Assembly: GCA_008369845.1 (NCBI GenBank)
Contig: MRSU01000065.1
Location: forward strand, 1 to 39,745
Length of the DNA: 39,745 bases
Reading direction: 5' to 3'
Origin: Trichomonas gallinae
Lineage: Eukaryota
In this document: positions 19,850 to 38,175 of the stretch, piece after piece
Position numbering within the stretch: position 1 is the first letter of the stretch
Layout of the letters: each line of letters opens with the position of its first letter
Made by a program: the position numbers and the translations under genes
The notes under the pieces: model-generated
What the model saw: only the letters and a program-made list of their open reading frames with translations
Databases searched by the model: none
What the model was told of the DNA's origin: nothing

Positions 19850-19910
19850 TTTTTTTTTTTTTTGAATCCGTTTCTGGTCTCAAAGTATTTTACTATTCTT
19901 CTCAAATTAG

Positions 19911-20514: not shown

Positions 20515-23500
20515 TTATCCGAGTTTTGCAAGGTCTTTTTCATACTTTTCGAGAAGAGTTCTTGCGCGGATGACTTTCGCTTCGAGTTCAAGTCTCTTGA
20601 GAAGGTTGGACTTGACTGCGTGTGAAGTTGCTCCGCCAGATGGATTCTGGCCTGTCTTTGGTGCTGATTTTCGCTTTGCTGTGGCTTCTGTTGTTGCAGC
20701 GAGATTTTGTGTAACTTCGCACAGCTGAGCAATGGCTTCAGCAAGTTTCGTTGCTTCAAGGCTTAATGTCTTGATCTGTGAAAGTTCTTTGCCTGATTTA
20801 GCAACTTTAGACAAAACAGGAGCAATTGTTGCTTCTGGTATTGCTGGTTTCTGTTGAATAATAGTTCTGGATGCTTGAATGGCTTCATTGAGTGCCTCAA
20901 GAAGAGTCATTGACTTCTCTGCGAGTTTATCAACGTTTTCTACAACATTGAGTTTTCCGCATGCGAGAATCAATAACTTCTGCGTAGCACTTGTTATACT
21001 TGTGCAAGGCTCGTTGATTGTTGTCCTTGAGAGTTCTGAGAATCTTGTGACTAGCTGGTCTTTGATTTCGGCGATCATTGCTTCGAACTCATGCTTAACA
21101 TTTCCTAATCCAGAAACAGCTGGATGGAGTTTCTGGCGAATTGCACTGAGTTCGTCGTTCGCAGATGCTGCCTGTTCGTTCGCTTCACTCGATGCTGAAA
21201 TAATTCCGTTGATGAGTTCAAAGACTTTCTCTGAATATGCCTTGGAAACACCATCGAAATCGCCTCTGAGGAGGAACCTGTCTTTAAGTGAATTCATTAA
21301 TTGCGCAAAATTAACTGTTAAAGCACCTGCAGCATCGGCTAAATAGGACTGATGTGAGATAGAGAAGCATGTTGCAGAGCAAGCTAAGACACGTGTAATC
21401 ATGTCCTGCATCTGCTGCATGTATGGTGTGAAGGATTGGACTATGTACTGATTCGTTGCCTGTGGATGGTTGACGATTTGGAAGAAAATCGTGTTCTTTT
21501 CGTTGAATTGTGCGATTGAGTTCTGCAGTTCGTTGTAGCAGACGCTGATGTCTGTGGAAGAAACATCAGGAACTGGTGGAATGTCGAATGATTTAGGAAG
21601 CATGTCGGCGCTTTCAATGTCGGGTGTTCTTGGAACAACATCTGTTAATGTGTTCATCTTGTTGAGAACTTTGAGAGTTTTATCGACAACTGACACGAAA
21701 GCAGCTGCTGTGATATCAACAGTAGACTTCACGTTGTATGCTTCTTTCTGGAAACCTAGAATTGCTTCAGATAGTTCGTTAATTGCATCACTAAAATCAA
21801 CTTCAGCCTGCTTGTTTGTATTGATTTCTTTGATTGCTTTGACATTTGCAGTGATTTGCGGCAAAAGTTTGTCGAAGTTTGCTTTCTCACTCGACAAAAT
21901 CGATAAAGTAACATCAGGAATCTTGCTGGATGTAATAGTGGCGAGTGTTGATGACAGTGTGTTGATTGTGTTGGACACTGATTGAATAAATGTGCACTTG
22001 GCATTTTCCCATGGTGTCTTTTGTTCTTCGTCGTTGTGTGATTCTTGCAGCATCGATGACATAGAATCAATGATTCTGTTGTATGACCTTGTTGCTCGCT
22101 TGATCATTGTCGATGAAACAGCTCTCATCTTAGTGATGTCGATGATGTTTCTTGTTGCTGTTGTACTGTTGTATATCATTGTGATATAATCAGTGGCAAT
22201 TGATGTTGACATTGTCTGGTTGGAGACAGAGAAGCCTCTGTACATGGCTGACTGGCAGCTTGCGAAGTTCTTGATGATTAAATTGATGCAGTCCTGTTGC
22301 TTGTCTTTGTTTCGTGCTTGAATAGCTTCGATTAATCTTGTTGATGCATCATCGATTTCAGTCTTCGCTGCGTTGAAGTATAAATCAACTGCTTTAGTAT
22401 CAGCGAGTTCTCCGACTTGCACGAAAACGTTTGGTGTTTCTCTCTTCAAAATCTGGATGGAGTTGGCCTTAATTGTTTGCAGAACTTGCGAAAGTTGCTG
22501 GTCAGCAGATGCATCTGCGATATAATACTTTTGGACTGCTTTGTCAATCTGAACGATTTGGTCGATGATTGGATCCAAGTCTGCTGCTTGTTCGTTCAAT
22601 GTCATTCTCTTGACTTTCATCGCTGAGAAGTCGATGAGCTCTCTCGAGATTATTTCGAGGTCATTAGTGTCAATTGCTTTGACAAGTTTCTCGAAGCTCT
22701 TGATTGGCTCAGTTTTCGCGCTCTGAACATTAACAAGTGCAGCATCGAAGTTCTTCAGTGCCTGGAATAAAACAGTGCACATCTGCCTGAATCTTTGAGC
22801 TGATTGTGTGTTTGATAAATCAGTAGAAACTGTGATGATTTCGTTGACTACTTGCAACAACTGTGCTGGATCAGTGACAAGCATTGCTCTGACTTTCTGG
22901 TCAGTAACAAGTGTCAAGTTTCTCGCGAGTGATGCAATGAGTTTCGGTGAAAGCTTGGAGAGTTCCATGACAAGTTGATCTATTTCCTGAGAATATTTCG
23001 TCTTCATAAGCTTCTCGACAAGTTGAATTGCTTCTGTATTTGTCTTTGCAAAGATGTTCTTGCACTCTGAGATAGGAAGGTGAGAGAACTGCGACAAAAT
23101 CGGGATAACATCGCTGGCTGTTTGTGCTGCATTCGCGACACTGTTGAGCTCTGATCTGTAGTTCTTTGTTGCCAAAGGTGCAGCTGAAACTGTTGCAACG
23201 TCGATGTTAAGATTTGTATTGAGAATTGAGTCAAGGCCTGCAATATTGGAGAATGTCGTGACAACAGGTGTAGATGGCTTGGTGATCTGAATAAGATTAT
23301 TGAGAACAGCGAGCTTCTTAACGATCTTGTCGTTGCTTGATTCGCGGGTTATTGTCTTAACAGCTGCTGGCGCTGAATTTGTTGATACTAACAATTTCAT
23401 TTCTCCCTGGTATTCTTTGATTTCGTCTGTTGATATGTCGAGAGATTGAGCTTGTGGCTTCCCTGCGATTGCTGAAATAGCTTGAATGATCTGCGGGTTG

Positions 23501-26500
23501 CTAGCAATCAAATCACGTTGAATTGCAGACATCTTTGTTCTAAGTTGAAGTCTCTGCAGATTCTCCTTAGATGCTGTTGAGATTGCGTCGACTGTTGTAA
23601 TTGATGGAGCTGCAATTTGAGCAAGCTGTGCTGGATTTTGCTGCAGCAAAGCTCGCTGGAATCCGATGAGTTTTCCGCTGATTTGTGTCGCGTTGTTTAC
23701 AGTGAGTGCTGTCATCTGTGATGCCTGGTTGAGTTGTGCTGTCTTGCTGAAGTCAACATCTTTGCATGAGGCAGCCATGTATTGAGGAGAAGCAGCCGCC
23801 ATAGAAAGATGCTGAAGAAGCAAAGTTTGAGCTGCTTGTGATTCTTTGTCTTCTTGTTTCACTTGCTGCTTGACTTGATCTGGATTGATACTGATCTGAT
23901 ATAGCTGCTGATAAGTTTGCTGCTGGAGCTGTGCGAGTTTATCAGGATTAAGCTGGATGTTCTTGATCGCATTAGTTTTGTCTGTTTGAGAAACTTCAGC
24001 GATTTCTGTTCTGATCTTGAGTAAGTCAGCGATGTTCGAGCAGAGCTGTGCTTGTGCGAGATCCTTCATGGAGTCAGCAAGTTCAGCATCGACTTTCTGA
24101 GCGTCAGGGACGAGCTTCTTCGCATCGACCTTGCGCTTAGTCTGCTGAATCAAAAGTGATTTGTCGAAGATTCTTGACTCCATAGACTTAGATTTGACAG
24201 TGTTCACTACATTGTCTAAGTCTTTCATCTTGATCATCTGCGTCGACATCAATGAGAAGATGACAACCAAGTCATCAACTTTGACATCGCTGACAGCATC
24301 AGCCAATGATGTGAATCCTTCACGAGTTGAATGCTGCAAAGCAAGCATTTTATCTTTGGCGTCTGTTAGCTTCTGCTCGTTTAAGTTTGCCTGCAAGATT
24401 TGGTTCGCTTGTCCACTCGTCAACATCTGATCGATGTTTGGAACTTTCTGGCGGATGACTTGGAGAACGTTGCCCATCTCGAGAGTCTGCTGGCAAGTAT
24501 TGAGAAGCTGCTGATGCTGGTGGAAGAATTCTACAGTTTTCTCGTTGTTGACTTTAACGAGATGCAATTGCTCTGGGTCATCAGCGAGTTTATCAGAGAC
24601 AGATTCATGGACTTTGTCAAGTAAAGCAGCTGTTGTATTCTTCAATGCAGACAAATCGTATTTGATGTCAGAACTCTTGGATGTCGCCAATGTTGCTGCG
24701 AGATTAGATATAACTGCCTGCTGATTCTCTAAATCTTCAATTCTTAATTGCGGAATTGCCATAGCAAACTCTTGTGGATGATTGATGTACTCGAGCTGCT
24801 GTGTAATCATCTGCGTGTAAGTGTCAACAAGTTCTCTGTCGACCGGCTGAGAAACATCAATGGCAGAAATCTTCTGCTGGAGCTGTGGGAGACAGTTCGT
24901 GTGGAACTGTTGTATTGCAACAAGAGATTGTGCGAGATTGAATCTCTGTAAAGCATCAACTACGAAGTCTTGTGCTTTGAGTGCTGTTTCTGTTTGAATT
25001 AAAGCATTCATCTTTGAAACGGATTCGTTTGTCTTTATCGTTTCGATGATCTTGTTGTTCGTTGATTTGAGCAAACCAATAGGCGTTGTTTCGACTGATG
25101 TATCAGCAATCATGTTATATACATCATCAGACGCTAAAACATTAAGTGAAGCATCAATCATTCTCATTGTCGTAACCATGTCTTCGGGTGAAGTGTTATG
25201 GATAACAACATCGAGTTGTTCCGGTCTGTCAGCGATGTTTACGAGTTGAATAAGTTTCTGCTGAACATCGACAAGCTTTGTTGGCGCAATTGGTGCTTTG
25301 AGGAGCTGCTGTCCTTCTGGAGACCTGACGTATTTGCACAATTCAGGGACTTTAGCAACAACAAGTTGCTGCAATGCTTGAAGTGTTTCGACAAGATTGA
25401 CTGCTGAGAAGCCTCTTTGTACTGATCTGTTGACATCTTCAACTGTCTTTAATTTGATTTCTTGTGTTGTCTGAGCGTTTGCAACAGCTTCGAGCAACTC
25501 TGTCTGCTTCATCTGGAATGTTTGAGCTGCTTCAGTGATATTTGTGTCTACTTGCTTTTCAAGAATGTTTTCTGTCATCAACTTCAAAGCGTGCTGCTGG
25601 ACAATGATTTCATCTGGTGTGAGTCTTGCGATTGTCTTCTTCAGTTCAATTGGATCGTTGAGAAGCTGAGACTGTTGCTGTATTGACATCATCGCGTTCG
25701 TTATTGCGTCTTCGTTGAGCTTGGCATCGATTGGCTTATCTAGCATTTTAACGATATCTGGGAATTCATCAAGCTGCTTCTGTCTGAGTCCTTCGATTCT
25801 CTGTGCGAGCATTACACCAAGATTAGACTCAACAAGCTTTCCTTGCTGTTGTACAGGAACAGAAGAAGTAACAACAGTTCCTAGTTGCGTAGTTTCAGCG
25901 ATGTTGTTCATGATTGTTGGAACTTCAGCTGTTGTGATTGAAATGATTGGATTAAGCGCAACTGATATTGTTGATGTGTTCTCTGTGGTTTGTTTAGCAA
26001 TGAGTTCTGGTGTAGAAGCCTTTGTTTGGATTATTGTTGGCTTGGCTGTCTTCTGCAGTGTGTCAAGTTTCGTTCTGTATTGGTTGAGAACAACTGTTGC
26101 ACTCTTTGCGACATTGAGACATGAAGCATCAGCAATTGCCGGCAAATAGATTTCAGCATTGACTAGTTTAACAGCTGTTGCATTTTCATTGAATTCTGTG
26201 ATTGGAACAACCATTGTTATCTCTGTCTTAAGAGCTTCTGCGCAGTTCTTGATCACATTTACTGATTCTTTGACCTTCTCGAAATCTTTTGCATCGTTAG
26301 AAATTTCGAATGACTTTTGGGCTTTGACGCAGTTCTGGATGATTGGTTCAATCCTTGATACATCAATTCCAGCTGCTTTGGCGCGAAGTGTTGCTATCTG
26401 CAATGACTGAGAAAGTGCCAAAACATCTGACATGTTCTGATCAAGTGAAACCAATGAGTCAGCAATGTCTTCGATTTGAACAGCAGAACCACGAATTGCG

Positions 26501-29500
26501 TTTCTCAGCTCTTGCTTGCCTGTGAGTGGAATTGGTGTCTTCCATGTATTGATTAGCGGTTGTATTGGTGTGATTGTCTTCAATGCAGCAGCAATCTCTT
26601 CCTTGTAGTTGTTAGGCATGGTTGTGAGTGTTGGAACAACAGTCTTAGTGAATGCTTCGTAAAGATTAGAGAACTGGTTGAGTTCCGATGGACCAATTGC
26701 AATTGATCTGTTTGCGTTCTTCAATAAAGCGTATGTCTGTCTTACGAATGATTTAACAGCTGGTGATGATGCTCCTGGGTTCTGAATAATGGAATTGTCG
26801 CATGCTGTAACAATTCTATCTAACTGGCTCAACAACATCTCGCCGAGACACATGTCGAATTGATGAAGTGTCGAAATAAGCTTGGTGTTGGACTCAGCGA
26901 CAGGATAAACGATGTCCTTGACTTGCTCGTTGTTCTTGAGTGTGTCAAGGAGAAGAGAAACAGCTTGTGATGCATCATTGAGTGAATCCCGGTTGACCAT
27001 TGCTGACGCGAATGATTTAGTCTGCATCAATAATTTAGCATCAGACTCTTTGACACTTGACTGAGCAACAGAATCATAATATTTGGTCTCATTGCTGAAC
27101 TTATCAGGAGACTGCGTGATTTTGTCGTGAAGAACTTTGATTGTGTTCTGAAGTTCAATGACTTGCTGTGCTGCATTAACTGCTGCTGCAGTTGCAACAT
27201 CACTTAAGAGATGGTTCCTCATTTCATAGTCTGTTTCGCATTGTGAGATTAATCTTACAACATCAACTAAAGCGCGAGTGTTACCTTCCTTGATATGTGG
27301 TGTATAGATGTTAACTGACTTGAGGACGTGGTTAGGAAGAGCATCCTTGTGATCATTGATTGCATTGAGATCTTCAACGATAGAAGCAATATATTCTTGT
27401 GGCAATTCTTTTTCGCCGCCTTCCATGATTAAGTCGCATGACTCTTTGATTGCACTTATGATATTGTTCTGCGCCATGACTGGTTCCTTTAAGATGAGCT
27501 GGTATGATTTTGGTTTACGAGTTTTAGGAAGGGAAGTGAAAACTTCTGAAACAAGTGCAACATTTTGTGTTGCTTCTTCAAGTTGATCGAAGTTTGAATC
27601 ATAAAGCGTTGGCAATAATGCACATGTTGCACTGTACAAATCATCGCAGACGATCTGTGCTTGGCGTGGCTTGAGTGTTGGCAAGTCTTTCATTACATTA
27701 GATGCAGTGATAATCAAATTATCGAACTGAGACTTGAGCTGTGGATTTTCGGCGACTTCTGGTGCTTGTGCAGCGGCCGTCAATTGAGCGACAAATTTCT
27801 GAAGCTGAGGATGAGCGTGCTGAATGAATTTAGTTGCTGTGGCTTTGTTCATGTGTGGGACAGAGATGATCTTAGCAATTGTACCTGATGAGTCATTGAA
27901 CGTCTTAAGCAAGTCGGTAAATTGTGATGAGTCAACCATTGGCTCAATTAACTCTGCATTTGATATAAGTTTCGGCATTTCATTCTTGATAGAGTTGAGC
28001 TGCTGTATTAAGACTTTCTCATCTTGTGCATTAAGTCTGTCTGTTGAGAATGCCTGCATGTTCTGTCTGATCTGAGAAACCAAAGCCTTTGCACTTGGAC
28101 TCTGATCAATTTGTCCGCATGATTCGATTTGGTTGAGAACGTTGTTGATCATTGCTGCTTGTTGTTGAACGACGACGATTGTTTCTTCGATATCATCATC
28201 TTCTTTGATAACTGGAACATTTTCGACCATGATTTCGACTTTCTTCGCTGTTGGAATGTTTCTGACAGCGGAAACGAAAACATTTGTCTTGTTCATAACT
28301 TCACTTATGTTGTTGTTCAGTTCAGAAACAAGAGAAAGATCTATTGCCTTCCTGACATTTATTGGGACCAAGTTGACTTTCTTCTGGAGCTGTATAAGTG
28401 TCTCTTTATCAAGCTTAGCCTGCTTGAGAGAGAACTGTGGACTCTGTAAGTGAGCATTGACTCTTTCGATTGTTGCGTTGATGGAATTCGTCCAATCATT
28501 GAGTGTCCTGTTGACGATTTCGTTGTTTGGATTTTCTGCGACAGAGTTTTGTACTTCGACGATCTTCTGCGAGAAATTGCCAAGAGATTGAGAAACTTCG
28601 GCAAGCTTAGCTTTGATAATTTCTGGAGAAACTTCAGGCTCAATGATTTCTTCAGCTTTAGGTCTCTCAGATTCTTCTTGGATAACAACTGGCTGAACGC
28701 CAGCTATCATCTGCAACCCGTATGGAACGAGCTGGTCAGCATTCTCGTTTGCCATGAATGATGGAACAGTGATAGCAATTTGCTGGAACTTCTGAGCGAG
28801 ACGGTTGATCTGGATGACAAATTCGTAGACTTCATCAGTGAGATTTTCACCCATTTCCTTAAGTGAGACTAAAACACTTGACATGTAATCATAGAGTCTG
28901 ACAGCGTCCTTGCGCAAATCATCGTTGTCTTCGACTTCAGGGAGAGTAATGTAATACTGGACAATCTGAGCGAGATGAGTGACGCAGTCGATGACAGCCT
29001 GGATCTGTTCAGGCGTTGGCTTAGCGAACTGCATCTTGTTTTGTCCTACCATGCTCTTCTTCTCTTCAAGCTTGGCGCTCGATGTCTGCTTCTGCGCAAG
29101 AGTGAGCGAGTCTTGTAATTGAGAAGTGATTTCTTCGTTGATTGTTGCGATCTTGACATTGTTCGTGACATCAACAATTCTCTTCGACAGGACTTGGATC
29201 TCGTTCATTGATTCGATTGCTTCCCTAACAATGTCGCATGCACATTTGACGACTTCATCGTTATATGGATCTTCAATTAATTCGTTTCTCCTATCGACCA
29301 TCTCTAAGTAAATCTTCTTGGCTTTAGCGAGTGTTGACATCGCACGATCGTTGAGTGTAGCATCCTGTTTGACACTATCTGAAGATGATGTTGTGACCAA
29401 TTCACTGATGAGATCTTGGAATGAATTCATAGACTCCTGGAATTTGAGAATGTAAGGAATGTTGGAGATGTTCTCTGACGGTTTCTCAGTGATAGCTTTA

Positions 29501-32500
29501 TCGATATCCATTGCGAGTCTTTCAATGATGACTGGCATTGCGACATCATTAGATACAGCTGAAAGCTGCTGAATATCATGCTGCAGCTGTGGCAGCATCG
29601 TCTTTAATTCGACAATGTTTGCTTGCGCGAGCGAAACTGCTCCGATATCTGCAACATTTGTCTCCAATGTACTCTGAGCCTGCTGAATGTCATAATATTT
29701 CGTCTTGACTTCGTTGAAAGCATATTTGATTCTATCCTGTGTCTGGTTATCAAGCTTGGAAAGAACATCTGGCGCCAAAATCGCTTCTTGGTTATTGACA
29801 AGATAAGCGAGATCGTTTGTGATCTTCGATGTTGTGACAGAAGTAATATTTCTTGATGAAATGAGATCTTCCTGGTGTTTGATCTGCATTAAGACTTGGT
29901 AATAAACAGAATAAAGATATGCTGCAGTCTGATCACTATTATATGGATACAATTCAGTGATCAAATCAGTTATATCTGCATCAACTTTGCTAAGCTCTGA
30001 AATGCATTCGAATCTCAATGCATCGTTTGCTGGAGACTGGGAAAGGTTGATAAGCAGCTGCTTGAGATTTGCAATGGACTGATTTGCAATGCTGAACAGT
30101 GATAAGACATGCTGTGGAATGTTTTGAAGATTTGGAGAATTCAAATCTAATGAAGACAAGGTATCAACAGTAACCAAAATTGTTTCATCGCCTGGAAGCG
30201 AAACAGCTCTTGATGCATTTGATGAACGCGACTCTGTAGCTGCTGATGAGTGTTGTTCGATGGCAGCTGATGAATGCTGTTCAACGTTTTCAATGATGAT
30301 TGGCTGGCCAGGAGTTTCTTCGATGAATGTTGGTCTCGCTGAAATTGATTGTCTCTCCATTAATATTGATGGTCTTGATGAAATCGAGACCCTCTCCTCC
30401 ATGATCTTCTTATCTTCATCATTTGTGATGATCTCGTTGACATTTCTCACGAGCTCTTTGAGTTTCCTGATTGATTTGACCGTGACAGGTAGATCAACGT
30501 TCTTTTCTCTTGCCAATGCAACGATTTCGTTTAGCTTTTGAATGTGGCTAGCAATCATTGGAATGTGCGGCTTGATGTGGATATTGAACTGCGAGGAGCT
30601 TTGTGCGTCTTTGATGGTTCCAGCAAGAACAGTCAGTGTCGAAGAAGATCCTTGCAATGACTGAATGATTGAGCTGACATCGATGCCGGCGGATGCTGCA
30701 TATAAAAGGAGCTCGTTAGCAATTTTGTCTTCTCTTGCTGATATACTGATAAGATCTTTAGTAATTGGAGGTGCCTCGACTTCTGGCTGCATCGAGAATG
30801 TTTGTTGATCTTGGATCCTTTCGATGAGCTGAACCTTGGCAGTTTCTGTTCTTTCTATTGTTGGCTTGACAATAGAAATAGTTGACTGTATCTTGTTCTG
30901 GATTTCGGCAACATATGGAGTAATGTCTTGGTTGCTCTGAACTAAATTCTGCGTTGTTGAAACGAGAGAATCAATCTGTGTATAGATCTGTGAGAACTGA
31001 TCTCTCAAGTCATCGTTGTAAGTCGAATCAACGAAGTTTCCGATTTGATCGTTGATTGTCGCCAACTGCTGGAATAATGCTTGTGCGCCAATGTCAACAA
31101 TCTTTTCTTCATTTAGATCGAGCTTGATTTCAATGGCATTGAGAAGATTCTCTGCACGAGAAATATTGAGGCCTTCTTCATTTGCACGCCAAACTATGTC
31201 TTCTTCTTTGATTTCGACGTCATCACCTTTATCATTGTCTAAATTGATCTTGTTGAACTGATAGGAATCATCCAATGTTATGTTTTCGAGATTAGGAACA
31301 TCGAAAAGCTCGACTTTCTTTTCTTCCTTCAACACATCGTCGATATTGATTTCGACGTTATTGATGTGCTCTTCGAAGTGGTTCATGAAGTCCATATCAT
31401 CGAGATAGACATCATCTTCGCCATCTTCATTAGATGTTTCATTTTGTTGTACGATTGGCTCTTCGAATGCAATTGTCGAAAGTTTGCCCATTGTGAGCGA
31501 AATTCTCTGGCCATTGTTGATGAAGCATGAGCCTTCTGTGCCAATCTGTACGCACTGGAACTCATCGAGCTGGTACAAGTAGATGAGGTTGATGATATAC
31601 ATACCAATTCTCTTGTAATCATCTGAATAGATGTTGAAGTAAATCTCTTCTGTTTGATCTAATGCTGAAATCATAACTTTTTCGTTGCCGATTTCGTTCG
31701 TGAGAATTGTGCCAATCGAGAAGTTGTAGATGATGTTGTTATCGTTGTTTGCATCCCTGATCATGATTCTCCATGGATTCATGCAGAGTTTGCCGATGAT
31801 TTGGCTGTTGTAATTAAGAGAATGTATGTTTGTAATGTATGTTTCTTCGCTGAATCCTCTGTAATCCATGATGAGACCGATGTAGTAGAACATGGCTGGT
31901 GTTTTATCAAGGACAGGAAGATGTGTCAAGAAAGCGAGTAACTTCTTCTTGAACATCTCGCTGATCTCGAAATCAGCTGGGCATATTGAGTTCCATTCTG
32001 GTCTCTTCAATGTGCTGACCATCAAAGTGACAGCACTTGGATTCTCAGCCATTGCATACAAAGATAAAGCAATTAACTGAGTCATTGAATCATCGCTGAC
32101 ATTGATTATCCTGTTGATGACGAGATACTTGCAATCATTGTAAACAGAGCTCAAGATTGTGTAATCGCGGAGCATCTGGTTGGAATACAAGAAGTATCTT
32201 CTCTTGACGAGAATAGGAACAGAAAGATTCGCCTGGAAAACAAGTGGCTGCATAATGTCGAGTGGTATATAGTCTCCTTCATCTTCTCTTATCCAGCATG
32301 TGTAGCCGATCCATGTTCCATATCCGAATTCATTGCAAACGTCTTTGAGGAGATCTTCGACTTTTGTCATAGATGGGAATGTCTTTGTCACAACAACATT
32401 TGAAATGGAAATGAACTTGGCAGTAGAAGATTCATCCAACAGAATGAGTCCATCTCCATCTGTAGCATCGATTGACATGAGATTTTCTGTCGTCAACAAT

Positions 32501-35500
32501 CTCCTGTATTCGTTGTTCTGGCCCTGGTGAACGAGGATATATTTGCCGGATGCATATGGCATGACTAAGAAGTAGCAGATGACTTTGATGATGCTCTCGT
32601 AGTCGAGTGTTGTGGAGATGCTGAACTGCGGTGGATCTGTGATGAACATTCTCTTCGAGACCAAAACATCGATGAGGCCAGCCCTGTTGTCGAGGATTGC
32701 CTGCAATTCTGGTGTGACTTTCTGGAGCTCTTCTCTCTTGGTGAGATATGGATAGAAGATGTACTTGTATGATCTGAGGAGAATGAACATTTCGTAGACA
32801 TCAGGTGTCGTGAAAATGAATGTTTTGACTCTTCCTGTAACGAGAGAAACGCGGACAACCAAGTGATCAATCATGCGGCTGAAATCGCAAACGTAGTTGT
32901 AAGTTATTTTCTCGTCCAAGTCGACAATTTTTTCGACTTCATCCTCGAAGCCTCTGACTCTACCAAATATGTGAACACCAAGTGGGCCAATAGAAACAGT
33001 CACTTCTTGTGCCGCAAGAATGAACTGATCATCTGTCATCTGGACTTTGAACAAGGTGCAGCCGAAATGCAATGTTTGCTTAGCAATGCCGATGTATTTC
33101 TGCATGGCGATGTCCCTGTGGATGAGTTTTCCGTTGCGGATTGTATCCATAATGTATTGCTCGTGGATTTTAGATCCATCTGTGCCAACTGGATAGAGCT
33201 TGTCCATTGGTGGAATTGTGATCTTCATTGGATCCTTCTCGCGGTTATCTGCGTAGATTGAGTAGATCGCGAGCTCTGTTGCTTTTGTGTCTGATGTGAC
33301 TGGGACACCAGACATGATGTTCTTCTTGACATCCTGGTAGAATGAGCGACAGATGTACGGGAAGAATCTGTCTGAGTGTGTGAAGACGAGGAACCTTCTG
33401 ATGAATAAGAATTCGAATTTGCCTGTGTACTGCTCAGGAATAGAAAGCCAGAGATCAAGTGGTGTTGGCGCCTTTCCTGGATTGTCAACATATAATGTAA
33501 GGCCAGCTGGATACTCGATGTTGAAGCATTCGCCAAGGATTGGAATGATCTGATGAAGTGGATGAGTGATATTGACGTAAATATCGATTGTTGTGTCGTT
33601 GTATGTGACTTGGATCTGGAAGATTGTCGGATACAGTGTCAGCCACATGTTGTCGCATGGGAAGTAATGTCCGAGAATGTCCTTTGGATGGATCCAGCGA
33701 TATTCATCGTTCGTGAGTTTGAGGAGTGGCGTCCATTCTCGTGATGCTTCAAGATGCAAAGCTCTGACAGCTCTCTTCCTGACCATTTCACCTGTGTATC
33801 TCATGTCGAACGCGATGTTGAGGATGCGCTGCTTCTTATCGTCCCATCTCTTTGACTTGAGAACGACTCTGTCGATTGACGTATTGACGTCTTCAGTCTT
33901 CGGATTGAAGCCTTCTCTTCTCATGTCGAGGAAGATGTTGTAGAGCTCAACTGTTCTGTTAATGAATGCGTGTGGACGCTCAGGATTATTCAGGATGCAC
34001 AAGATCTGCGCTGGCTCATCTGAATCGTCCTGTGAGAACTTGACAGCGAGTTCGTTTGCTATTGTTTCGCACTTGATGAAGTGTCTGTACTCGCATATGG
34101 TGAAAGTGCGTGTGAGATCCTCTGAGACAACGCGAACAGTCTGCGGGCTCGCAACCATCAGCGCTGAGATGTCTGCTCTTGTTCCTTTCTTGAATTTGAC
34201 GTAAGTAATTTCGACACTGATGGATCCGAAAGTTGGAAGTGTTCTCGCGAGTGCTATGTATTTGAACATTGCATCTTTGTGGCCTTTGCATGGCTTGTGC
34301 TTCATCATGCTCCAAAGTTCTGACTTCGTCGTCTTATTAACTTTGAAGTGAGGTGGGAAAAGTGGCTCCAAAATCTCCGGGAGCTCTTCTTTCTTCGGTT
34401 TGTGCTTAGACTCAGCAATTAAAGCGTAGCCAGCTAGTTCGAGTGCGACATCGCGAATCATAGAAACTTCTCCACTCAAGATGAGATCTTTCGCGTCGTA
34501 ATAAAGAATCTTAAGAGCGCTGTGATCTGTGAGTTCTGTCTTGTTGATGACGAAGAAGTATCTGAAGAAGTAGAGCGTGTCGTATTGCCTTGTCTGCTCT
34601 GGAATTGTCAATGTTGTGTTGAGTGGAACCATCTTGTTATCTTCCTTGTAGAAGAATGTATATCCTTGGCAGAATGTGATGTCAAACAAGACGCCAACTT
34701 TGGGAATGAGCGATGTAACTGGTTCATCGATCGAAACAGTCATCGTTGACTTCTTGCCGAAGATGTTGACGAAAGTGATCTTCGCGAACTGTGGATGGAA
34801 GTAGATGATTGACTCGCGATATGGCTGAGCATCTCTTAAGACCATTCCTGGCTTCAACCATTTGATGATGCCTTTGAGAACTTGAACCATTGTTGAGTAT
34901 GGAGTGTTAGGATCATGTGGGAGCTGTGAAAGCAATGTTTTTGCGAGTTCTTCTTGCGGAGTGTCGATGTCGAACCATTGTGCTGGCTTGAGAATGTTGT
35001 CGCTGAGGAGACCAAACCTCAAGTCGACCATAGGACCATGAACAACGCCTTTCTCGTCCTTCCAGCCACCTGAGAGTCTCAAAGCCATTTCTTCGAGTCT
35101 CTTCTTCTCCATCTCGCGGTTGAAGATTGCGACTTGTCTCATGATCTTCAAGTTGTATGAGATGACGCAGTCCATGTCGTTGACATTATCACTCGTGAAC
35201 GTACCGTAAACTATCCTTCCTGTTTTAGGAGGATATTGGTACTTGATGATGTAGTTGTTTCCGATAATATAGAAACCTTTAAGCGAGTGATATGTGATTT
35301 TCTCGACGACTGGCTTTCCTTTTGCATTGAGGATAGAAAGCTGGAGTGGTGTGATGACGAATGTGCCGTGCTGAGCTTCTCTTGGTGGATCGAAGTCATC
35401 CCAGTAATGCTCGAATGTGAAAGATTCTGAACCAAATCCTTCGATTTTTCTGACAAGTCCGATGTACTTCTTCGCGGCGCTTTTCTGAGTCATATCTTCT

Positions 35501-38175
35501 GATTCTTGGATCATCTTGCGGAACTTCTTCTCTAGAGATGAGCCGACAGACACTGATGATGGAACAAGCTCTTTGAGATTGTGTTTCGTCGTGCGGATGT
35601 TTTTGACGCCAAATGCATAAAGAGAATACATCGCGAGTTTGAGTGCTGTTTCAGTGTCAACTTTGATGTCGTTCTCATTCAAGTAGTTCCTGCAATCGTG
35701 CAATGCTTGAATGGCTGATGATGTCTGCTGTAAAACTTCCTTTGAGAGAATGAAGAATCTCCTCTTGACGTGTAGATGCCTGAAATAGTTGATCTGCTCT
35801 GGAATTGTCTTTCTGAGATCAAGTGGATATAATTGTTTGTCGACTCCTTCATACCACAAAGTGTAACCGAGCATTGGCTGCATGTGATTCTCTGAGAACA
35901 ACCATGGAACAATTTCATCGACTGTTTTTGTGATTTCTGTCTCGCATTTGAAATGGGAGCCATCAGGGAACGTATACCTGATCTTATATTTCGGCTCCAA
36001 CAGATAAAGAGTCATATCGTTCTGAAGGCAAAGGCTTTGAATGAGATCTGTATCTCTCATGAATGTGAAGATTTCATCCATCATGTGAACCAAAATAACC
36101 TTCTCGTGCTTGAAAGGAATCGATAGATAATAAGAAATTGCGCGCTTGACGATTTCACCTGTGAATTTCTTGTCGAATGCGTATTGTTTAATTTCCTTTG
36201 TATTTGCTGAGATGTCGTCTGTCGCGTACAAGTTGATCTGCGTCTTCTTGTTGATTAACTTCTTGAAGTTGCCTGCAACAGTAGCATAACGCTTAGAACG
36301 ATCCTGGAAAATCAAGTTTGTTATCTCTCTGTATCTCGAAATTGTTTTCGCCATCTGTTCAACGCCTTTTCCTGAGAAAGTGTATGTCTGGAAACTATTC
36401 CTCTTCGGAGAGAATTTGATAATCAAATCTTGCGCTGTTGTAACTGAAACAATCTCTGAATAGGAAATCTTTTCTTCGATTAGTCCTGAAATGCCATCAT
36501 ATATTGCGAGTCTGTATGGCGAGAGATAAACGACGGCTGGATCAAGAACGTAATCTTTGTAGCCGACAGTGACAGTGACATAGCATTCGTATTTGCGCTC
36601 AGCGAAGCCGACCAACTTGCGGCAAAGTTTGATGAATTTTCTCATCGCGTTGAATCTGTTGCAGGTTCCGTTGTTTTGGTAGAAATCTCTAAGCACTGGG
36701 CCCCTTCCTGCTCCTTTTCCTTTCTTGGCGAGTCTCGCTGGCATCCACTGTGAGATATCGTCGGGAACTTTCTTGATATTAAATTTTTCGTCGGCCATTA
36801 ATCTGTAGGCGCAATATTTGAGTAATTCTTCCTTCGTGAATTCGATTTCTGAATGATTGACGCAGTCTATGACGTCCTTGAATGCAATTTCTGTTGTGAT
36901 TGCTGTCTCAAGATCTTCGAGTGTAAAGATATAATACTGGCGAGCGAAGAAAACTTCATTGATCGCGCGTGTTTGTTCTGGTAATGATTTGTTGATTGAT
37001 AGATAAACAGCCTTCCGGCTTTTGTTCAAGACGCACAGTGTGTAGCATCTGTAGGAGCCGATCTTGAAGTATGTTGCAATGTCAGCGACTAAATCTGAGA
37101 CTTTCTTGGAAATATCGAGAGTTAATTTTTGTGATTTGAAATGCTTTGAGTGAACCATGATAGGCTTCAAAAGCTTGATGACGTATACATGTGTTTTCTC
37201 GTTTGGTGTGTAATCTTCGAGGAATTTCTCTGGTTCTACCCATCTGGCATCAGATCCATCTTGATTTGATAATAAAATGCCGTATTTATCATCTTGATAT
37301 CTTCCTAGAGCTGTTAAAGCAGCCTGAAGCATCTCTGGCTGGCTCATGCCGAGCTTGTAGCTTTTTGGAGCTCCGCGTTCCGAAAACATGTAATGTGTTT
37401 CGAGAGTGATGCTTTCACCTTCTTGTTGGATGCTTTGATCTGCCATGGCACCGAATCCCATCATTGTCTGGAATTCCGTAAGCTGCTCGTTGATATTTAA
37501 TTCGAGATCGATACCTACTTGTGCAGCGTTTTGATCTCCTTCGACACTTTGAAGCTGTGATGGATCATAGTCGCTATCGTAGAAATCTGCGAAGTTTAAG
37601 CTTGCGTATTGTCCTGTTGCATATAATTGTTCATCACTTCCGCTTGCAATTCCGTAGTGTGAATTTACTAATGACTGGAAGCCACTTGTACTGTTAAACA
37701 TTCCTGAACTGTAATTATAATTCGATGAATATAAAATCGAAAGATCCGTTTGATCTTGGCCAACTGGCTGTGCCATGTTTTCTTGATTTTGAGAATTGTA
37801 TTGATGTGAATTTTGATAATTTTGATTTGGATCATAATTTGATTGATATCCTTCAACGCCAGTGACTTGAGAATTAACAACCATGGATTGTCCACCTTGA
37901 TATTGTATGTTAATATTCGTATTTGCAAGAACTAGGCCCAAGATGTAACCATCTTGGATGCCTTGTTGTCTTAAAGTGATTTCAGGATCAATCCAATCTG
38001 ATGCTCCATCTGGACGTTGATAAAATGCATCGTATTCCATACTAGGATTAATATTTAGATACCGCTTCGCAAAATCAATTGCGAGATTACCCGGCTGATC
38101 TAAATAATACTGAAATGGAGAGAATTCTGGATGTGTTTGTGGTTCTACAGTATATAAACCAACAATAGAATCCAT
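20515..38175 (-). CDS. Giant (5886 aa) talin-like protein: five tandem FERM heads, long helical rod, I/LWEQ-like C-terminus
   Basis: Uninterrupted 17,661 bp ORF. Talin-head motifs recur five times (see the repeat feature). The rod is A/Q/L/I/S/T-rich and amphipathic. The terminal helix LKRLELEAKVIRARTLLEKYEKDLAKL resembles the THATCH dimerisation helix. Confidence 0.85.
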   Translation of the reverse strand: MDSIVGLYTVEPQTHPEFSPFQYYLDQPGNLAIDFAKRYLNINPSMEYDAFYQRPDGASDWIDPEITLRQQGIQDGYILGLVLANTNINIQYQGGQSMVVNSQVTGVEGYQSNYDPNQNYQNSHQYNSQNQENMAQPVGQDQTDLSILYSSNYNYSSGMFNSTSGFQSLVNSHYGIASGSDEQLYATGQYASLNFADFYDSDYDPSQLQSVEGDQNAAQVGIDLELNINEQLTEFQTMMGFGAMADQSIQQEGESITLETHYMFSERGAPKSYKLGMSQPEMLQAALTALGRYQDDKYGILLSNQDGSDARWVEPEKFLEDYTPNEKTHVYVIKLLKPIMVHSKHFKSQKLTLDISKKVSDLVADIATYFKIGSYRCYTLCVLNKSRKAVYLSINKSLPEQTRAINEVFFARQYYIFTLEDLETAITTEIAFKDVIDCVNHSEIEFTKEELLKYCAYRLMADEKFNIKKVPDDISQWMPARLAKKGKGAGRGPVLRDFYQNNGTCNRFNAMRKFIKLCRKLVGFAERKYECYVTVTVGYKDYVLDPAVVYLSPYRLAIYDGISGLIEEKISYSEIVSVTTAQDLIIKFSPKRNSFQTYTFSGKGVEQMAKTISRYREITNLIFQDRSKRYATVAGNFKKLINKKTQINLYATDDISANTKEIKQYAFDKKFTGEIVKRAISYYLSIPFKHEKVILVHMMDEIFTFMRDTDLIQSLCLQNDMTLYLLEPKYKIRYTFPDGSHFKCETEITKTVDEIVPWLFSENHMQPMLGYTLWYEGVDKQLYPLDLRKTIPEQINYFRHLHVKRRFFILSKEVLQQTSSAIQALHDCRNYLNENDIKVDTETALKLAMYSLYAFGVKNIRTTKHNLKELVPSSVSVGSSLEKKFRKMIQESEDMTQKSAAKKYIGLVRKIEGFGSESFTFEHYWDDFDPPREAQHGTFVITPLQLSILNAKGKPVVEKITYHSLKGFYIIGNNYIIKYQYPPKTGRIVYGTFTSDNVNDMDCVISYNLKIMRQVAIFNREMEKKRLEEMALRLSGGWKDEKGVVHGPMVDLRFGLLSDNILKPAQWFDIDTPQEELAKTLLSQLPHDPNTPYSTMVQVLKGIIKWLKPGMVLRDAQPYRESIIYFHPQFAKITFVNIFGKKSTMTVSIDEPVTSLIPKVGVLFDITFCQGYTFFYKEDNKMVPLNTTLTIPEQTRQYDTLYFFRYFFVINKTELTDHSALKILYYDAKDLILSGEVSMIRDVALELAGYALIAESKHKPKKEELPEILEPLFPPHFKVNKTTKSELWSMMKHKPCKGHKDAMFKYIALARTLPTFGSISVEITYVKFKKGTRADISALMVASPQTVRVVSEDLTRTFTICEYRHFIKCETIANELAVKFSQDDSDEPAQILCILNNPERPHAFINRTVELYNIFLDMRREGFNPKTEDVNTSIDRVVLKSKRWDDKKQRILNIAFDMRYTGEMVRKRAVRALHLEASREWTPLLKLTNDEYRWIHPKDILGHYFPCDNMWLTLYPTIFQIQVTYNDTTIDIYVNITHPLHQIIPILGECFNIEYPAGLTLYVDNPGKAPTPLDLWLSIPEQYTGKFEFLFIRRFLVFTHSDRFFPYICRSFYQDVKKNIMSGVPVTSDTKATELAIYSIYADNREKDPMKITIPPMDKLYPVGTDGSKIHEQYIMDTIRNGKLIHRDIAMQKYIGIAKQTLHFGCTLFKVQMTDDQFILAAQEVTVSIGPLGVHIFGRVRGFEDEVEKIVDLDEKITYNYVCDFSRMIDHLVVRVSLVTGRVKTFIFTTPDVYEMFILLRSYKYIFYPYLTKREELQKVTPELQAILDNRAGLIDVLVSKRMFITDPPQFSISTTLDYESIIKVICYFLVMPYASGKYILVHQGQNNEYRRLLTTENLMSIDATDGDGLILLDESSTAKFISISNVVVTKTFPSMTKVEDLLKDVCNEFGYGTWIGYTCWIREDEGDYIPLDIMQPLVFQANLSVPILVKRRYFLYSNQMLRDYTILSSVYNDCKYLVINRIINVSDDSMTQLIALSLYAMAENPSAVTLMVSTLKRPEWNSICPADFEISEMFKKKLLAFLTHLPVLDKTPAMFYYIGLIMDYRGFSEETYITNIHSLNYNSQIIGKLCMNPWRIMIRDANNDNNIIYNFSIGTILTNEIGNEKVMISALDQTEEIYFNIYSDDYKRIGMYIINLIYLYQLDEFQCVQIGTEGSCFINNGQRISLTMGKLSTIAFEEPIVQQNETSNEDGEDDVYLDDMDFMNHFEEHINNVEINIDDVLKEEKKVELFDVPNLENITLDDSYQFNKINLDNDKGDDVEIKEEDIVWRANEEGLNISRAENLLNAIEIKLDLNEEKIVDIGAQALFQQLATINDQIGNFVDSTYNDDLRDQFSQIYTQIDSLVSTTQNLVQSNQDITPYVAEIQNKIQSTISIVKPTIERTETAKVQLIERIQDQQTFSMQPEVEAPPITKDLISISAREDKIANELLLYAASAGIDVSSIIQSLQGSSSTLTVLAGTIKDAQSSSQFNIHIKPHIPMIASHIQKLNEIVALAREKNVDLPVTVKSIRKLKELVRNVNEIITNDEDKKIMEERVSISSRPSILMERQSISARPTFIEETPGQPIIIENVEQHSSAAIEQHSSAATESRSSNASRAVSLPGDETILVTVDTLSSLDLNSPNLQNIPQHVLSLFSIANQSIANLKQLLINLSQSPANDALRFECISELSKVDADITDLITELYPYNSDQTAAYLYSVYYQVLMQIKHQEDLISSRNITSVTTSKITNDLAYLVNNQEAILAPDVLSKLDNQTQDRIKYAFNEVKTKYYDIQQAQSTLETNVADIGAVSLAQANIVELKTMLPQLQHDIQQLSAVSNDVAMPVIIERLAMDIDKAITEKPSENISNIPYILKFQESMNSFQDLISELVTTSSSDSVKQDATLNDRAMSTLAKAKKIYLEMVDRRNELIEDPYNDEVVKCACDIVREAIESMNEIQVLSKRIVDVTNNVKIATINEEITSQLQDSLTLAQKQTSSAKLEEKKSMVGQNKMQFAKPTPEQIQAVIDCVTHLAQIVQYYITLPEVEDNDDLRKDAVRLYDYMSSVLVSLKEMGENLTDEVYEFVIQINRLAQKFQQIAITVPSFMANENADQLVPYGLQMIAGVQPVVIQEESERPKAEEIIEPEVSPEIIKAKLAEVSQSLGNFSQKIVEVQNSVAENPNNEIVNRTLNDWTNSINATIERVNAHLQSPQFSLKQAKLDKETLIQLQKKVNLVPINVRKAIDLSLVSELNNNISEVMNKTNVFVSAVRNIPTAKKVEIMVENVPVIKEDDDIEETIVVVQQQAAMINNVLNQIESCGQIDQSPSAKALVSQIRQNMQAFSTDRLNAQDEKVLIQQLNSIKNEMPKLISNAELIEPMVDSSQFTDLLKTFNDSSGTIAKIISVPHMNKATATKFIQHAHPQLQKFVAQLTAAAQAPEVAENPQLKSQFDNLIITASNVMKDLPTLKPRQAQIVCDDLYSATCALLPTLYDSNFDQLEEATQNVALVSEVFTSLPKTRKPKSYQLILKEPVMAQNNIISAIKESCDLIMEGGEKELPQEYIASIVEDLNAINDHKDALPNHVLKSVNIYTPHIKEGNTRALVDVVRLISQCETDYEMRNHLLSDVATAAAVNAAQQVIELQNTIKVLHDKITQSPDKFSNETKYYDSVAQSSVKESDAKLLMQTKSFASAMVNRDSLNDASQAVSLLLDTLKNNEQVKDIVYPVAESNTKLISTLHQFDMCLGEMLLSQLDRIVTACDNSIIQNPGASSPAVKSFVRQTYALLKNANRSIAIGPSELNQFSNLYEAFTKTVVPTLTTMPNNYKEEIAAALKTITPIQPLINTWKTPIPLTGKQELRNAIRGSAVQIEDIADSLVSLDQNMSDVLALSQSLQIATLRAKAAGIDVSRIEPIIQNCVKAQKSFEISNDAKDFEKVKESVNVIKNCAEALKTEITMVVPITEFNENATAVKLVNAEIYLPAIADASCLNVAKSATVVLNQYRTKLDTLQKTAKPTIIQTKASTPELIAKQTTENTSTISVALNPIISITTAEVPTIMNNIAETTQLGTVVTSSVPVQQQGKLVESNLGVMLAQRIEGLRQKQLDEFPDIVKMLDKPIDAKLNEDAITNAMMSIQQQSQLLNDPIELKKTIARLTPDEIIVQQHALKLMTENILEKQVDTNITEAAQTFQMKQTELLEAVANAQTTQEIKLKTVEDVNRSVQRGFSAVNLVETLQALQQLVVAKVPELCKYVRSPEGQQLLKAPIAPTKLVDVQQKLIQLVNIADRPEQLDVVIHNTSPEDMVTTMRMIDASLNVLASDDVYNMIADTSVETTPIGLLKSTNNKIIETIKTNESVSKMNALIQTETALKAQDFVVDALQRFNLAQSLVAIQQFHTNCLPQLQQKISAIDVSQPVDRELVDTYTQMITQQLEYINHPQEFAMAIPQLRIEDLENQQAVISNLAATLATSKSSDIKYDLSALKNTTAALLDKVHESVSDKLADDPEQLHLVKVNNEKTVEFFHQHQQLLNTCQQTLEMGNVLQVIRQKVPNIDQMLTSGQANQILQANLNEQKLTDAKDKMLALQHSTREGFTSLADAVSDVKVDDLVVIFSLMSTQMIKMKDLDNVVNTVKSKSMESRIFDKSLLIQQTKRKVDAKKLVPDAQKVDAELADSMKDLAQAQLCSNIADLLKIRTEIAEVSQTDKTNAIKNIQLNPDKLAQLQQQTYQQLYQISINPDQVKQQVKQEDKESQAAQTLLLQHLSMAAASPQYMAASCKDVDFSKTAQLNQASQMTALTVNNATQISGKLIGFQRALLQQNPAQLAQIAAPSITTVDAISTASKENLQRLQLRTKMSAIQRDLIASNPQIIQAISAIAGKPQAQSLDISTDEIKEYQGEMKLLVSTNSAPAAVKTITRESSNDKIVKKLAVLNNLIQITKPSTPVVTTFSNIAGLDSILNTNLNIDVATVSAAPLATKNYRSELNSVANAAQTASDVIPILSQFSHLPISECKNIFAKTNTEAIQLVEKLMKTKYSQEIDQLVMELSKLSPKLIASLARNLTLVTDQKVRAMLVTDPAQLLQVVNEIITVSTDLSNTQSAQRFRQMCTVLFQALKNFDAALVNVQSAKTEPIKSFEKLVKAIDTNDLEIISRELIDFSAMKVKRMTLNEQAADLDPIIDQIVQIDKAVQKYYIADASADQQLSQVLQTIKANSIQILKRETPNVFVQVGELADTKAVDLYFNAAKTEIDDASTRLIEAIQARNKDKQQDCINLIIKNFASCQSAMYRGFSVSNQTMSTSIATDYITMIYNSTTATRNIIDITKMRAVSSTMIKRATRSYNRIIDSMSSMLQESHNDEEQKTPWENAKCTFIQSVSNTINTLSSTLATITSSKIPDVTLSILSSEKANFDKLLPQITANVKAIKEINTNKQAEVDFSDAINELSEAILGFQKEAYNVKSTVDITAAAFVSVVDKTLKVLNKMNTLTDVVPRTPDIESADMLPKSFDIPPVPDVSSTDISVCYNELQNSIAQFNEKNTIFFQIVNHPQATNQYIVQSFTPYMQQMQDMITRVLACSATCFSISHQSYLADAAGALTVNFAQLMNSLKDRFLLRGDFDGVSKAYSEKVFELINGIISASSEANEQAASANDELSAIRQKLHPAVSGLGNVKHEFEAMIAEIKDQLVTRFSELSRTTINEPCTSITSATQKLLILACGKLNVVENVDKLAEKSMTLLEALNEAIQASRTIIQQKPAIPEATIAPVLSKVAKSGKELSQIKTLSLEATKLAEAIAQLCEVTQNLAATTEATAKRKSAPKTGQNPSGGATSHAVKSNLLKRLELEAKVIRARTLLEKYEKDLAKLG
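31560..37420 (-). repeat. Five tandem ~390-400 aa talin-type FERM modules (F0-F1-F2-F3)
   Basis: The motif (G/C)(Y/L)T....PL....(I/L)PEQ.....RR(F/Y)F recurs near 37045, 35865, 34665, 33500 and 32305, a spacing of ~1160-1200 nt. Each copy is followed by Y.D.K..I....V....A.ELA and by A..KYI..AR....FG. Boundaries are approximate. Confidence 0.85.

What the first reader, a model, noticed from the sequence alone, without database searches (positions are those of the whole stretch)
20515..31150. Oversized talin-like rod ending in an I/LWEQ-like actin-binding and dimerisation module
Seen: ~3500 aa of amphipathic helices with very few aromatic residues, then a helical bundle, a flexible linker (AKRKSAPKTGQNPSGGATSH) and a terminal helix (LKRLELEAKVIRARTLLEKYEKDLAKL). 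Established: talin, HIP1R and Sla2 end in a THATCH bundle, linker and dimerisation helix, and the talin rod is ~2000 aa. Inference: combined with the FERM array, this is a talin-like protein more than twice normal size that could link membrane to actin and sense force, for example during amoeboid adhesion to host cells. The diagnostic Trp of I/LWEQ is not obvious, so the domain call is tentative.
Basis: partly seen in the sequence, partly recalled or inferred. Interest (0 to 1): 0.78.

Follow-up and report, generated by a model that had tools for sequence, protein, structure and literature searches.

The report
Five-headed giant talin in trichomonads
This single 5,886-amino-acid gene of a Trichomonas-like protist encodes a distant relative of the animal adhesion protein talin, with five talin-type heads in place of one and an extra-long helical rod; it likely ties the cell membrane to the cytoskeleton in a group where no talin had been reported, although its tail appears to lack several residues that talin needs to bind actin.

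Summary
Real and conserved. The stretch is the last 3,545 aa of one intronless 5,886-aa ORF, colinear end to end with Trichomonas vaginalis TVAG_252220 (58%), so not a chimera. It is a divergent talin homologue. Its five FERM repeats match the talin head, F0 included, best of all PDB proteins (E 2e-16). The predicted last 600 aa fold into talin-type bundles ending in an R13/THATCH bundle, linker and terminal helix. That tail aligns (hhalign 99.7%) with parabasalid paralogues that pass Pfam's I_LWEQ cut-off, though the protein itself does not pass. Parabasalids hold three classes: five-headed giants, talin-sized single-head proteins, and headless I/LWEQ proteins. The extra size comes from four added heads and about 900 aa of giant-specific ~150-aa repeats with no fold match, so the rod is not uniformly talin-like. 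Actin binding is doubtful: by a hand-set register, the Arg that talin needs for dimerisation and actin binding is present in 17 of 17 headless paralogues and 0 of 28 head-bearing proteins. Metamonads also lack myosin. A 2023 review says talin is unidentified outside the well-studied lineages. The scan's notes showed no earlier record. New variant of a known kind.

The parts
20515..38175 (-). Whole intronless ORF, 5,886 aa plus stop: giant five-headed talin homologue
   Evidence: colinear over full length with TVAG_252220 (58%) and P0003 (31%)
37906..38175 (-). Extra lone F0-like domain, aa 1-90
   Evidence: F0 profile from the family's own heads scores 37 bits here and 16-59 bits in 15 of 15 giant N-termini tested; best shuffled control 5.3 bits
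37417..37905 (-). Q/N/S/Y-rich then acidic low-complexity linker, aa 91-253
   Evidence: sequence
36307..37416 (-). Talin-type head 1 (F0-F1-F2-F3, no F1 loop), aa 254-623
   Evidence: Pfam FERM_M, weak FERM_f0 (E 0.013) and FERM_N; profile hit to talin head
35128..36282 (-). Talin-type head 2, aa 632-1016
33916..35028 (-). Talin-type head 3, aa 1050-1420
32743..33894 (-). Talin-type head 4, aa 1428-1811
31561..32703 (-). Talin-type head 5, aa 1825-2205 (acidic, net charge about -15)
31156..31560 (-). Acidic head-to-rod linker, aa 2206-2340
   Evidence: sequence; no amphipathic signal
25864..31155 (-). First part of the helical rod, aa 2341-4104; amphipathic; aa 2701-3100 and 3301-3900 shared with the single-head class; essentially unmodelled
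23206..25863 (-). Six ~150-aa all-helical repeats found only in the giant class, aa ~4105-4990; no significant fold match
22720..23178 (-). Predicted talin-type five-helix bundle, aa ~5000-5152
   Evidence: VIA: talin R6 Z 13.0, rmsd 4.8, 149 aligned
21631..22014 (-). Predicted four-helix bundle, aa ~5388-5515, in the place of talin R11
   Evidence: aligns with the next bundle onto talin R11R12 (3dyj Z 13.1, rmsd 8.5, 255 aligned) and with vinculin/catenin four-helix bundles
21166..21624 (-). Predicted talin-type five-helix bundle (R12-like / Sla2 REND-like), aa ~5518-5670
   Evidence: VIA Z 13-14.3 to talin rod bundles and Sla2 570-733; shared by 10 of 10 single-head and 16 of 16 headless/other proteins tested
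20659..21165 (-). Predicted R13/THATCH (I/LWEQ) five-helix bundle, aa ~5671-5839
   Evidence: talin R13 2jsw Z 14.1, rmsd 3.5, 162 of 189 aligned; HIP1R 1r0d Z 13.3; Foldseek ranks 1-2 Sla2 and HIP1R THATCH
20620..20658 (-). Flexible linker, aa ~5840-5852
   Evidence: pLDDT below 50; variable in length and sequence
20518..20619 (-). Terminal helix homologous to the talin/HIP1R/Sla2 dimerisation helix, aa 5853-5886; ends at the position of talin's invariant Arg (hand-set register)
   Evidence: residues named

Best explanation
This is a divergent, enlarged talin homologue that likely works as a cortical linker: five talin-type heads at one end would grip the membrane and the tails of surface proteins, a long helical rod would act as spacer and spring, and the terminal helix would join two molecules tail to tail. 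Shown by sequence: one gene, six F0-like domains and five FERM heads closest to talin's, and a tail homologous to I/LWEQ proteins. Predicted: talin-type bundles in the last ~900 aa and a rigid repeat block before them. Inferred by analogy: lipid and receptor-tail binding by the heads (ten per dimer, favouring clustering), antiparallel dimerisation, and unfolding of bundles under load. Least certain: attachment to F-actin. The classical tail site looks degenerate, so actin would be bound weakly, through another surface or through a partner such as the headless I/LWEQ paralogues. Any load would have to come from actin polymerisation or flagellar and axostyle movement, not myosin. I put talin homology at about 0.88 and the whole linker mechanism at about 0.6.
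For: Head-repeat profile: best PDB hits are talin-1 heads, E 2e-16 over F0-F2, against 3.5e-9 for the next FERM (PTPN21), 7.6e-8 moesin, 1.7e-6 kindlin. The single-head class gives the same ranking independently, E 3e-16 over F0-F3. Tail model: Foldseek's only hit under E 0.001 is Sla2 REND+THATCH (1.5e-4), then HIP1R THATCH. VIA assigns residues 385-553 to talin R13 and the two bundles before it to R11R12, in talin's order. Among 48,161 chains the top four rows are talin or TLNRD1. The tail profile retrieves 105 proteins from 1.84 billion, including paralogues passing Pfam I_LWEQ (15 of 17 headless proteins). hhalign joins the two at 99.7%, E 5.5e-26, 577 columns through the terminal helix (also 98.8%). 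A mixed family tail profile hits talin R13 at E 2.9e-5. Hydrophobic positions of the terminal helix are near-invariant. The giant paralogue TVAG_180570 is 2.49-fold more abundant in the membrane-enriched fraction of more-adherent T. vaginalis (PMC7885099 Table 1).
Against: The window protein and its five closest tails have no Pfam I_LWEQ hit, and neither the tail nor its profile hits talin in the PDB. A second mixed profile missed talin R13, so that direct link depends on the alignment. With the terminal helix removed, the giant bundle profile scores no headless paralogue above 12 bits, and the reverse search misses the window protein. VIA Z of 13-14 is near what unrelated helical bundles reach (tool notes). 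The position of talin Arg2526 is Arg in 0 of 18 giants and 0 of 10 single-head proteins, and R2526G/A make talin monomeric with 33-37% actin binding (PMC2168396 Table 1). Talin's K2443-V2444-K2445 falls in an insertion against the family profile. T. vaginalis is reported to lack all myosins (PMC3942036). The direct orthologue was listed in a hydrogenosome membrane preparation (PMC3174187), not at the cortex. No binding, localisation or dimer was tested here.
Confidence: 0.6

Rival explanations
1. A talin-derived protein repurposed as a static scaffold or tether of the parabasalid fibrous cytoskeleton or organelles, with no actin binding at the tail and no force sensing.
For: Loss of the terminal Arg in all 28 head-bearing proteins while 17 of 17 headless paralogues keep it. 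A ~900-aa repeat block with high internal rigidity in the model (pTM 0.60 over 1,200 aa). No myosin in metamonads. Orthologue found in a hydrogenosome membrane preparation.
Against: The R13-type fold and terminal helix are retained and the helix is the most conserved part of the tail. The hydrogenosome paper itself names cytoskeletal carry-over. A giant paralogue is enriched with Arp2/3, coactosin and gelsolin in the adherent-cell membrane fraction.
Confidence: 0.24
2. Not a talin by descent: talin-type FERM heads were joined independently to a Sla2/HIP1R-derived helical tail in parabasalids, giving talin's architecture a second time.
For: Foldseek's best hit is Sla2 REND+THATCH, not talin. 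The clearest I/LWEQ carriers in the family have no FERM head. No named non-parabasalid talin appeared among the 30 representatives looked up (29 distinct). F0-F1 pairs occur outside talin (unchecked scan note e1-7154525).
Against: Talin-sized single-head proteins with head, rod and tail in talin's order exist in T. vaginalis, T. foetus and Histomonas. The head is closer to talin than to any other FERM. A third bundle aligns in the R11 position. No ANTH domain was found on the headless class.
Confidence: 0.14
3. Assembly artefact joining separate genes.
For: Unusual length; no RNA holder was listed to show one transcript.
Against: Full-length colinear orthologues, one on a 20-Mb record. 17 further giants of 4,697-7,437 aa. 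Heads only 16-20% identical to each other and grouped by position across species.
Confidence: 0.01

Closest known systems
Talin (talin-1/2; PDB 3ivf, 6mfs, 2jsw, 3dyj, 9az6)
   Same: F0-F1-F2-F3 head type; N-terminal heads, helical-bundle rod, R11-R12-R13-like end, linker and terminal helix.
   Different: Five heads plus a lone F0; no F1 loop (best hits are loop-deleted constructs); rod about 3,550 aa with a ~900-aa non-talin repeat block; Trp, KVK and terminal Arg not kept; below Pfam I_LWEQ detection.
Sla2 / HIP1R (PDB 9hdd, 1r0d)
   Same: Five-helix bundle followed by THATCH bundle and terminal helix; best Foldseek hits.
   Different: No ANTH domain found; FERM heads and a far longer rod instead.
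Parabasalid single-head talin-sized proteins (TVAG_101030, TVAG_329890, TRFO_11406; annotated only as FERM or hypothetical)
   Same: Same head and tail (hhalign E 1.8e-65); share aa 2701-3100 and 3301-3900 of the rod; also lack the terminal Arg.
   Different: One head, 2,481-2,782 aa, none of the ~150-aa repeats (0 of 10).
Parabasalid headless I/LWEQ proteins (TRFO_21942, labelled I/LWEQ domain-containing by UniRef)
   Same: Homologous last 400-580 aa.
   Different: No FERM; about 1,540-1,850 aa when complete; pass the Pfam cut-off and keep the terminal Arg.
Vinculin / alpha-catenin
   Same: Related four- and five-helix bundles.
   Different: No FERM heads or I/LWEQ tail; lower ranks for the terminal bundle.

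Membership tests
Talin | N-terminal atypical FERM head with F0 before F1-F2-F3 | tested here: met
   Profile match spans F0-F2, talin best at E 2e-16; single-head class F0-F3, E 3e-16. Present five times.
Talin | Large loop inserted in F1 (recalled as typical of animal talins) | tested here: not met
   Profile aligns almost without gaps to loop-deleted talin constructs and scores full-length talin lower.
Talin | Rod of four- and five-helix amphipathic bundles | tested here: inconclusive
   Met for bundles at aa ~5000-5152 and 5388-5839; aa 4105-4990 is a different repeat; aa 2341-4086 amphipathic but not modelled.
Talin | C-terminal R13/THATCH five-helix bundle | tested here: met
   Predicted fold: 2jsw Z 14.1, rmsd 3.5, 162 of 189; Foldseek Sla2/HIP1R top; sequence link through paralogues.
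I/LWEQ (Pfam PF01608) | Score at or above the gathering threshold | tested here: not met
   No hit for the window protein or 5 close tails at E up to 5-10; homologous paralogues pass.
I/LWEQ (Pfam PF01608) | Core Trp (talin W2389) | tested here: not met
   Aligns to Asn in the family profile; no Trp in the last 215 aa; also absent from most Pfam-positive paralogues.
I/LWEQ (Pfam PF01608) | Terminal dimerisation helix with conserved hydrophobic face | tested here: met
   Helix predicted, in register with paralogues; Leu/Val/Ile near-invariant at positions matching I2498, I2502, M2508, L2509, L2515, L2522, I2525 (register set by hand).
I/LWEQ (Pfam PF01608) | [quoted passage not shown] | tested here: not met
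   R2526 position Arg in 0 of 18 giants; R2519 position Glu in 18 of 18 giants and 17 of 17 headless, with Arg at the E2512 position; KVK in an insertion. Register set by hand.
Talin | Homodimer through the terminal helix | not tested
Talin | F-actin binding, receptor-tail and PIP2 binding, force-dependent unfolding that exposes vinculin sites | not testable with these tools
   Needs experiments.
Sla2/HIP1R | N-terminal ANTH domain | tested here: not met
   The N-terminus is an F0-like domain and FERM heads; no ANTH hit.
   The 1,800 aa modelled consist of short-to-medium helices in bundles and repeats with no significant HEAT or spectrin match; 1,750 aa unmodelled.

The most novel reading that the evidence does not exclude
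Talin is older and more widespread than thought, and parabasalids run a myosin-free talin adhesion system in which the job is split: five-headed giants cluster surface adhesins and bear load through a new repeat spring, while headless I/LWEQ paralogues supply the actin grip.
Probability: 0.33. Interest if true: 0.88.

Novelty: new variant of a known kind. Interest (0 to 1): 0.72.

Why it matters
A 2023 review (PMC10846614) states that talin has not been identified outside the lineages it discusses (animals, Amoebozoa and their opisthokont relatives) and leaves open what links adhesion receptors to actin in other crawling cells; it counts T. vaginalis among crawling cells. This family supplies named candidates in T. 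vaginalis, T. foetus and Histomonas. It would move the origin of talin deeper, or else show a second assembly of the same architecture. A fixed array of five complete talin heads did not turn up in my searches. A talin in cells without myosin lets one ask what talin does without actomyosin tension. For parasitology it gives testable candidates for the intracellular side of host-cell attachment.

Tried and rejected
Direct sequence tests of the tail found nothing: Pfam (FAP206 and Cep192_D7 at E 0.0002-0.002 are below cut-off and were rejected as helical noise) and PDB. Profile A9 and paralogue P0065 did not hit talin R13. The headless-class profile A4 hit neither talin nor an ANTH protein. A search with the single-head alignment for talins of other lineages returned only one input protein, so no eukaryote-wide tree was built. 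The repeat block had no Foldseek match under E 0.46, no row centred on it in the wide VIA search, where one bundle filled the list, and no usable Atlas hit; this does not prove a new fold. No RNA holder was listed and two same-study RNA runs laid nothing; this says nothing on expression. No whole genome is held, so vinculin-like partners and receptors could not be sought. Dimer prediction and the Atlas search of the tail were not available. Literature searches listed no paper naming a trichomonad talin by title or opening abstract; I read passages of only some hits, one search showed 40 of 426, and most subscription papers, including cytoskeleton proteomes I recall for trichomonads, are outside the library. 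Three scanned supplement files of PMC3174187 could not be read.
Full report
Observation. The window is gene-dense eukaryotic DNA. One minus-strand frame is open from 38190 to 20515 and encodes 5,886 aa from the first Met at 38175. The finding covers its last ~3,545 aa. The quoted linker and terminal helix are there, aromatic content is 4.0% against 11.9% in the head region, and helical amphipathicity is well above shuffles in six of eight rod segments.

One gene. The protein aligns end to end with Trichomonas vaginalis TVAG_252220 (5,920 aa, 58%) and with P0003 (5,839 aa, 31%), and over 4,200 aa with a Histomonas meleagridis protein. The organism is therefore a trichomonad-like parabasalid by homology, and a chimera is excluded. 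TVAG_252220 is listed as 'Unknown' in a hydrogenosome membrane proteome (PMC3174187, passages), which shows that the orthologue is made as protein; that paper notes cytoskeletal carry-over. No RNA holder was listed for the window itself.

Heads. Pfam finds five FERM_M stretches. The five ~375-aa repeats are 16-20% identical to the first. Their profile matches talin-1 heads best among all PDB sequences, E 2e-16 across F0, F1 and F2, ahead of PTPN21 (3.5e-9), moesin (7.6e-8) and kindlin (1.7e-6); the best hits are constructs without the F1 loop. The first 90 aa are a sixth, lone F0-like domain in 15 of 15 giants tested. In a tree of 95 heads from 28 proteins, heads group by position with support 0.87-0.998 (two off-position labels come from renumbering after short heads were dropped, and P0004 starts mid-array), so the array of five is old and each position has its own history.

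Tail. The AlphaFold2 model of the last 600 aa (7 sequences, pLDDT 80.9, pTM 0.47) shows successive bundles, a loose linker and a terminal helix. Foldseek's single hit under E 0.001 is Sla2 REND+THATCH, followed by HIP1R THATCH, with catenin, vinculin and talin rod domains below. VIA places model residues 385-553 on talin R13 (Z 14.1, rmsd 3.5, 162 of 189), 232-384 on talin five-helix bundles (Z 13-14.3) and 98-380 on R11R12; talin and TLNRD1 also lead a search of 48,161 chains. These Z values are close to the ceiling for unrelated helical bundles, so the fold alone is suggestive. By direct sequence search the tail hits neither Pfam I_LWEQ nor talin.

The bridge. A profile of six tails retrieved 105 proteins from 1.84 billion. 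The long ones fall into three classes: giants with five heads (17 besides the near-identical P0001, one N-terminally short; 4,697-7,437 aa), ten single-head proteins of talin size, and headless proteins. All 10 lookups among 30 (29 distinct) that returned a species name are T. vaginalis, T. foetus or H. meleagridis. Of 17 headless proteins, three of them possibly fragments, 15 pass Pfam's I_LWEQ cut-off at their C-terminus. hhalign aligns the giant tail to the two headless subfamilies at 99.7% (577 columns) and 98.8% (404 columns), through the terminal helix. A mixed tail profile hits talin R13 (E 2.9e-5), R13-DD and HIP1R, but a differently chosen one does not. The last 215 aa alone link to the headless class at only 31 bits at best, and not at all without the terminal helix. 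Homology of the whole tail is solid; the terminal bundle itself has drifted far.

Is the actin site intact? Gingras et al. (PMC2168396, passages and Table 1) show that K2443, V2444, K2445, R2519 and R2526 are needed, and that R2526G or R2526A gives monomers with 33-37% binding; the cryo-EM study (PMC11831117, passages) places R2513, R2519, R2526 and Q2527 on actin. I set the register of the terminal helix by hand from these residue numbers; it puts Leu, Val or Ile at seven hydrophobic positions and, in the headless class, Gln or Glu at Q2505, Lys or Arg at R2513 and Arg at R2526. At that last position Arg is found in 17 of 17 headless, 0 of 18 giant and 0 of 10 single-head proteins, and the window protein ends there on Gly. 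All classes mostly have Glu at R2519 and Arg at E2512. Talin's Trp aligns to Asn, and KVK falls in an insertion. The head-bearing classes have extra conserved leucines in the helix, so a more hydrophobic dimer is plausible, but this was not tested. Classical actin binding by this tail is therefore doubtful.

Why it is oversized. Four extra heads add about 1,500 aa. Aa ~4105-4990 hold six ~150-aa repeats, detected in 15 of 16 giant homologues tested, 0 of 10 single-head and 0 of 16 headless or other proteins. The model of aa 4087-5286 (14 sequences, pLDDT 80.6, pTM 0.60) shows a recurring long-helix, short-helix pattern. It has no Foldseek match below E 0.46, and VIA matches concentrate on one talin-type bundle at aa ~5000-5152 (R6, Z 13.0); the repeats were not searched alone, so a new fold is not shown. 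Aa 2701-3100 and 3301-3900 are shared with 8-10 of 10 single-head proteins; aa 2341-4086 were not modelled.

Mechanism. By analogy with talin, the heads would hold membrane lipid and receptor tails, the rod would span and stretch, and the terminal helices would pair. The five differentiated heads suggest clustering or several partners (inference). T. vaginalis is reported to have lost all myosins (PMC3942036, passages), so load would have another source. The giant paralogue TVAG_180570 is 2.49-fold up in the membrane-enriched fraction of more-adherent cells, beside Arp2/3, coactosin and gelsolin (PMC7885099, section 7): a correlation, for a paralogue. Rivals are a static scaffold without actin binding (0.24) and independent assembly from FERM and Sla2-like parts (0.14).

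Novelty. [quoted passage not shown] My searches listed no paper naming a trichomonad talin, within the limits given under Tried and rejected. Databases label these proteins only as FERM, hypothetical, 'cytoskeletal anchoring' or I/LWEQ-containing. The scan's notes held no matching finding. I also read passages of bioRxiv 2020.06.12.142943 and PMC2651865; neither addresses this. Verdict: a real, divergent talin-family variant; interest 0.72.

Noticed in passing
P0026, P0031-P0036, P0039, P0043, P0047 (for example TVAG_101030, TVAG_329890, TRFO_11406): Ten talin-sized single-head proteins (2,481-2,782 aa) with talin's overall architecture, annotated only as FERM or hypothetical where named. These are the plainest candidates for a trichomonad talin.
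   Followed up: partly
P0062, P0068, P0073, P0081-P0083, P0087, P0089, P0093, P0095, P0101, P0102, P0104, P0106: Headless 1,540-1,850-aa I/LWEQ proteins in two well-separated subfamilies (tree); their N-terminal ~1,000 aa had no convincing Pfam or PDB match.
   Followed up: partly
window 20518-20619 (terminal helix): Arg at the position of talin E2512 and Glu at R2519, near-invariant across all classes: a possible compensatory charge swap (hand-set register).
   Followed up: partly
P0112 (TVAG_180570): Second five-headed giant in T. vaginalis, 2.49-fold enriched in more-adherent parasites in a published proteome (PMC7885099).
   Followed up: partly
P0042, P0055, P0103: Headless 1,000-1,720-aa proteins whose tails group with different classes and lack a Pfam I_LWEQ hit; may be truncated or secondarily headless.
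   Followed up: no
window 2463-19879: Neighbours are unrelated housekeeping genes: thioredoxin/PDI-like, Arf-like GTPase, ankyrin, kinesin, NTF2, GPN-type GTPase, DRAM/Frag1, a HEAT-like 920-aa protein and an aminotransferase. No functional cluster.
   Followed up: no
window 9193-11760 (-): 855-codon ORF with no Pfam hit: two beta-rich regions around a Gln/Pro-rich linker and short helical stretch; possibly a double beta-propeller.
   Followed up: no
window 38812-39525 (-): 237-aa ORF just upstream: N-terminal hydrophobic anchor followed by a low-complexity Pro/Ser/Lys-rich tail, no Pfam hit.
   Followed up: no
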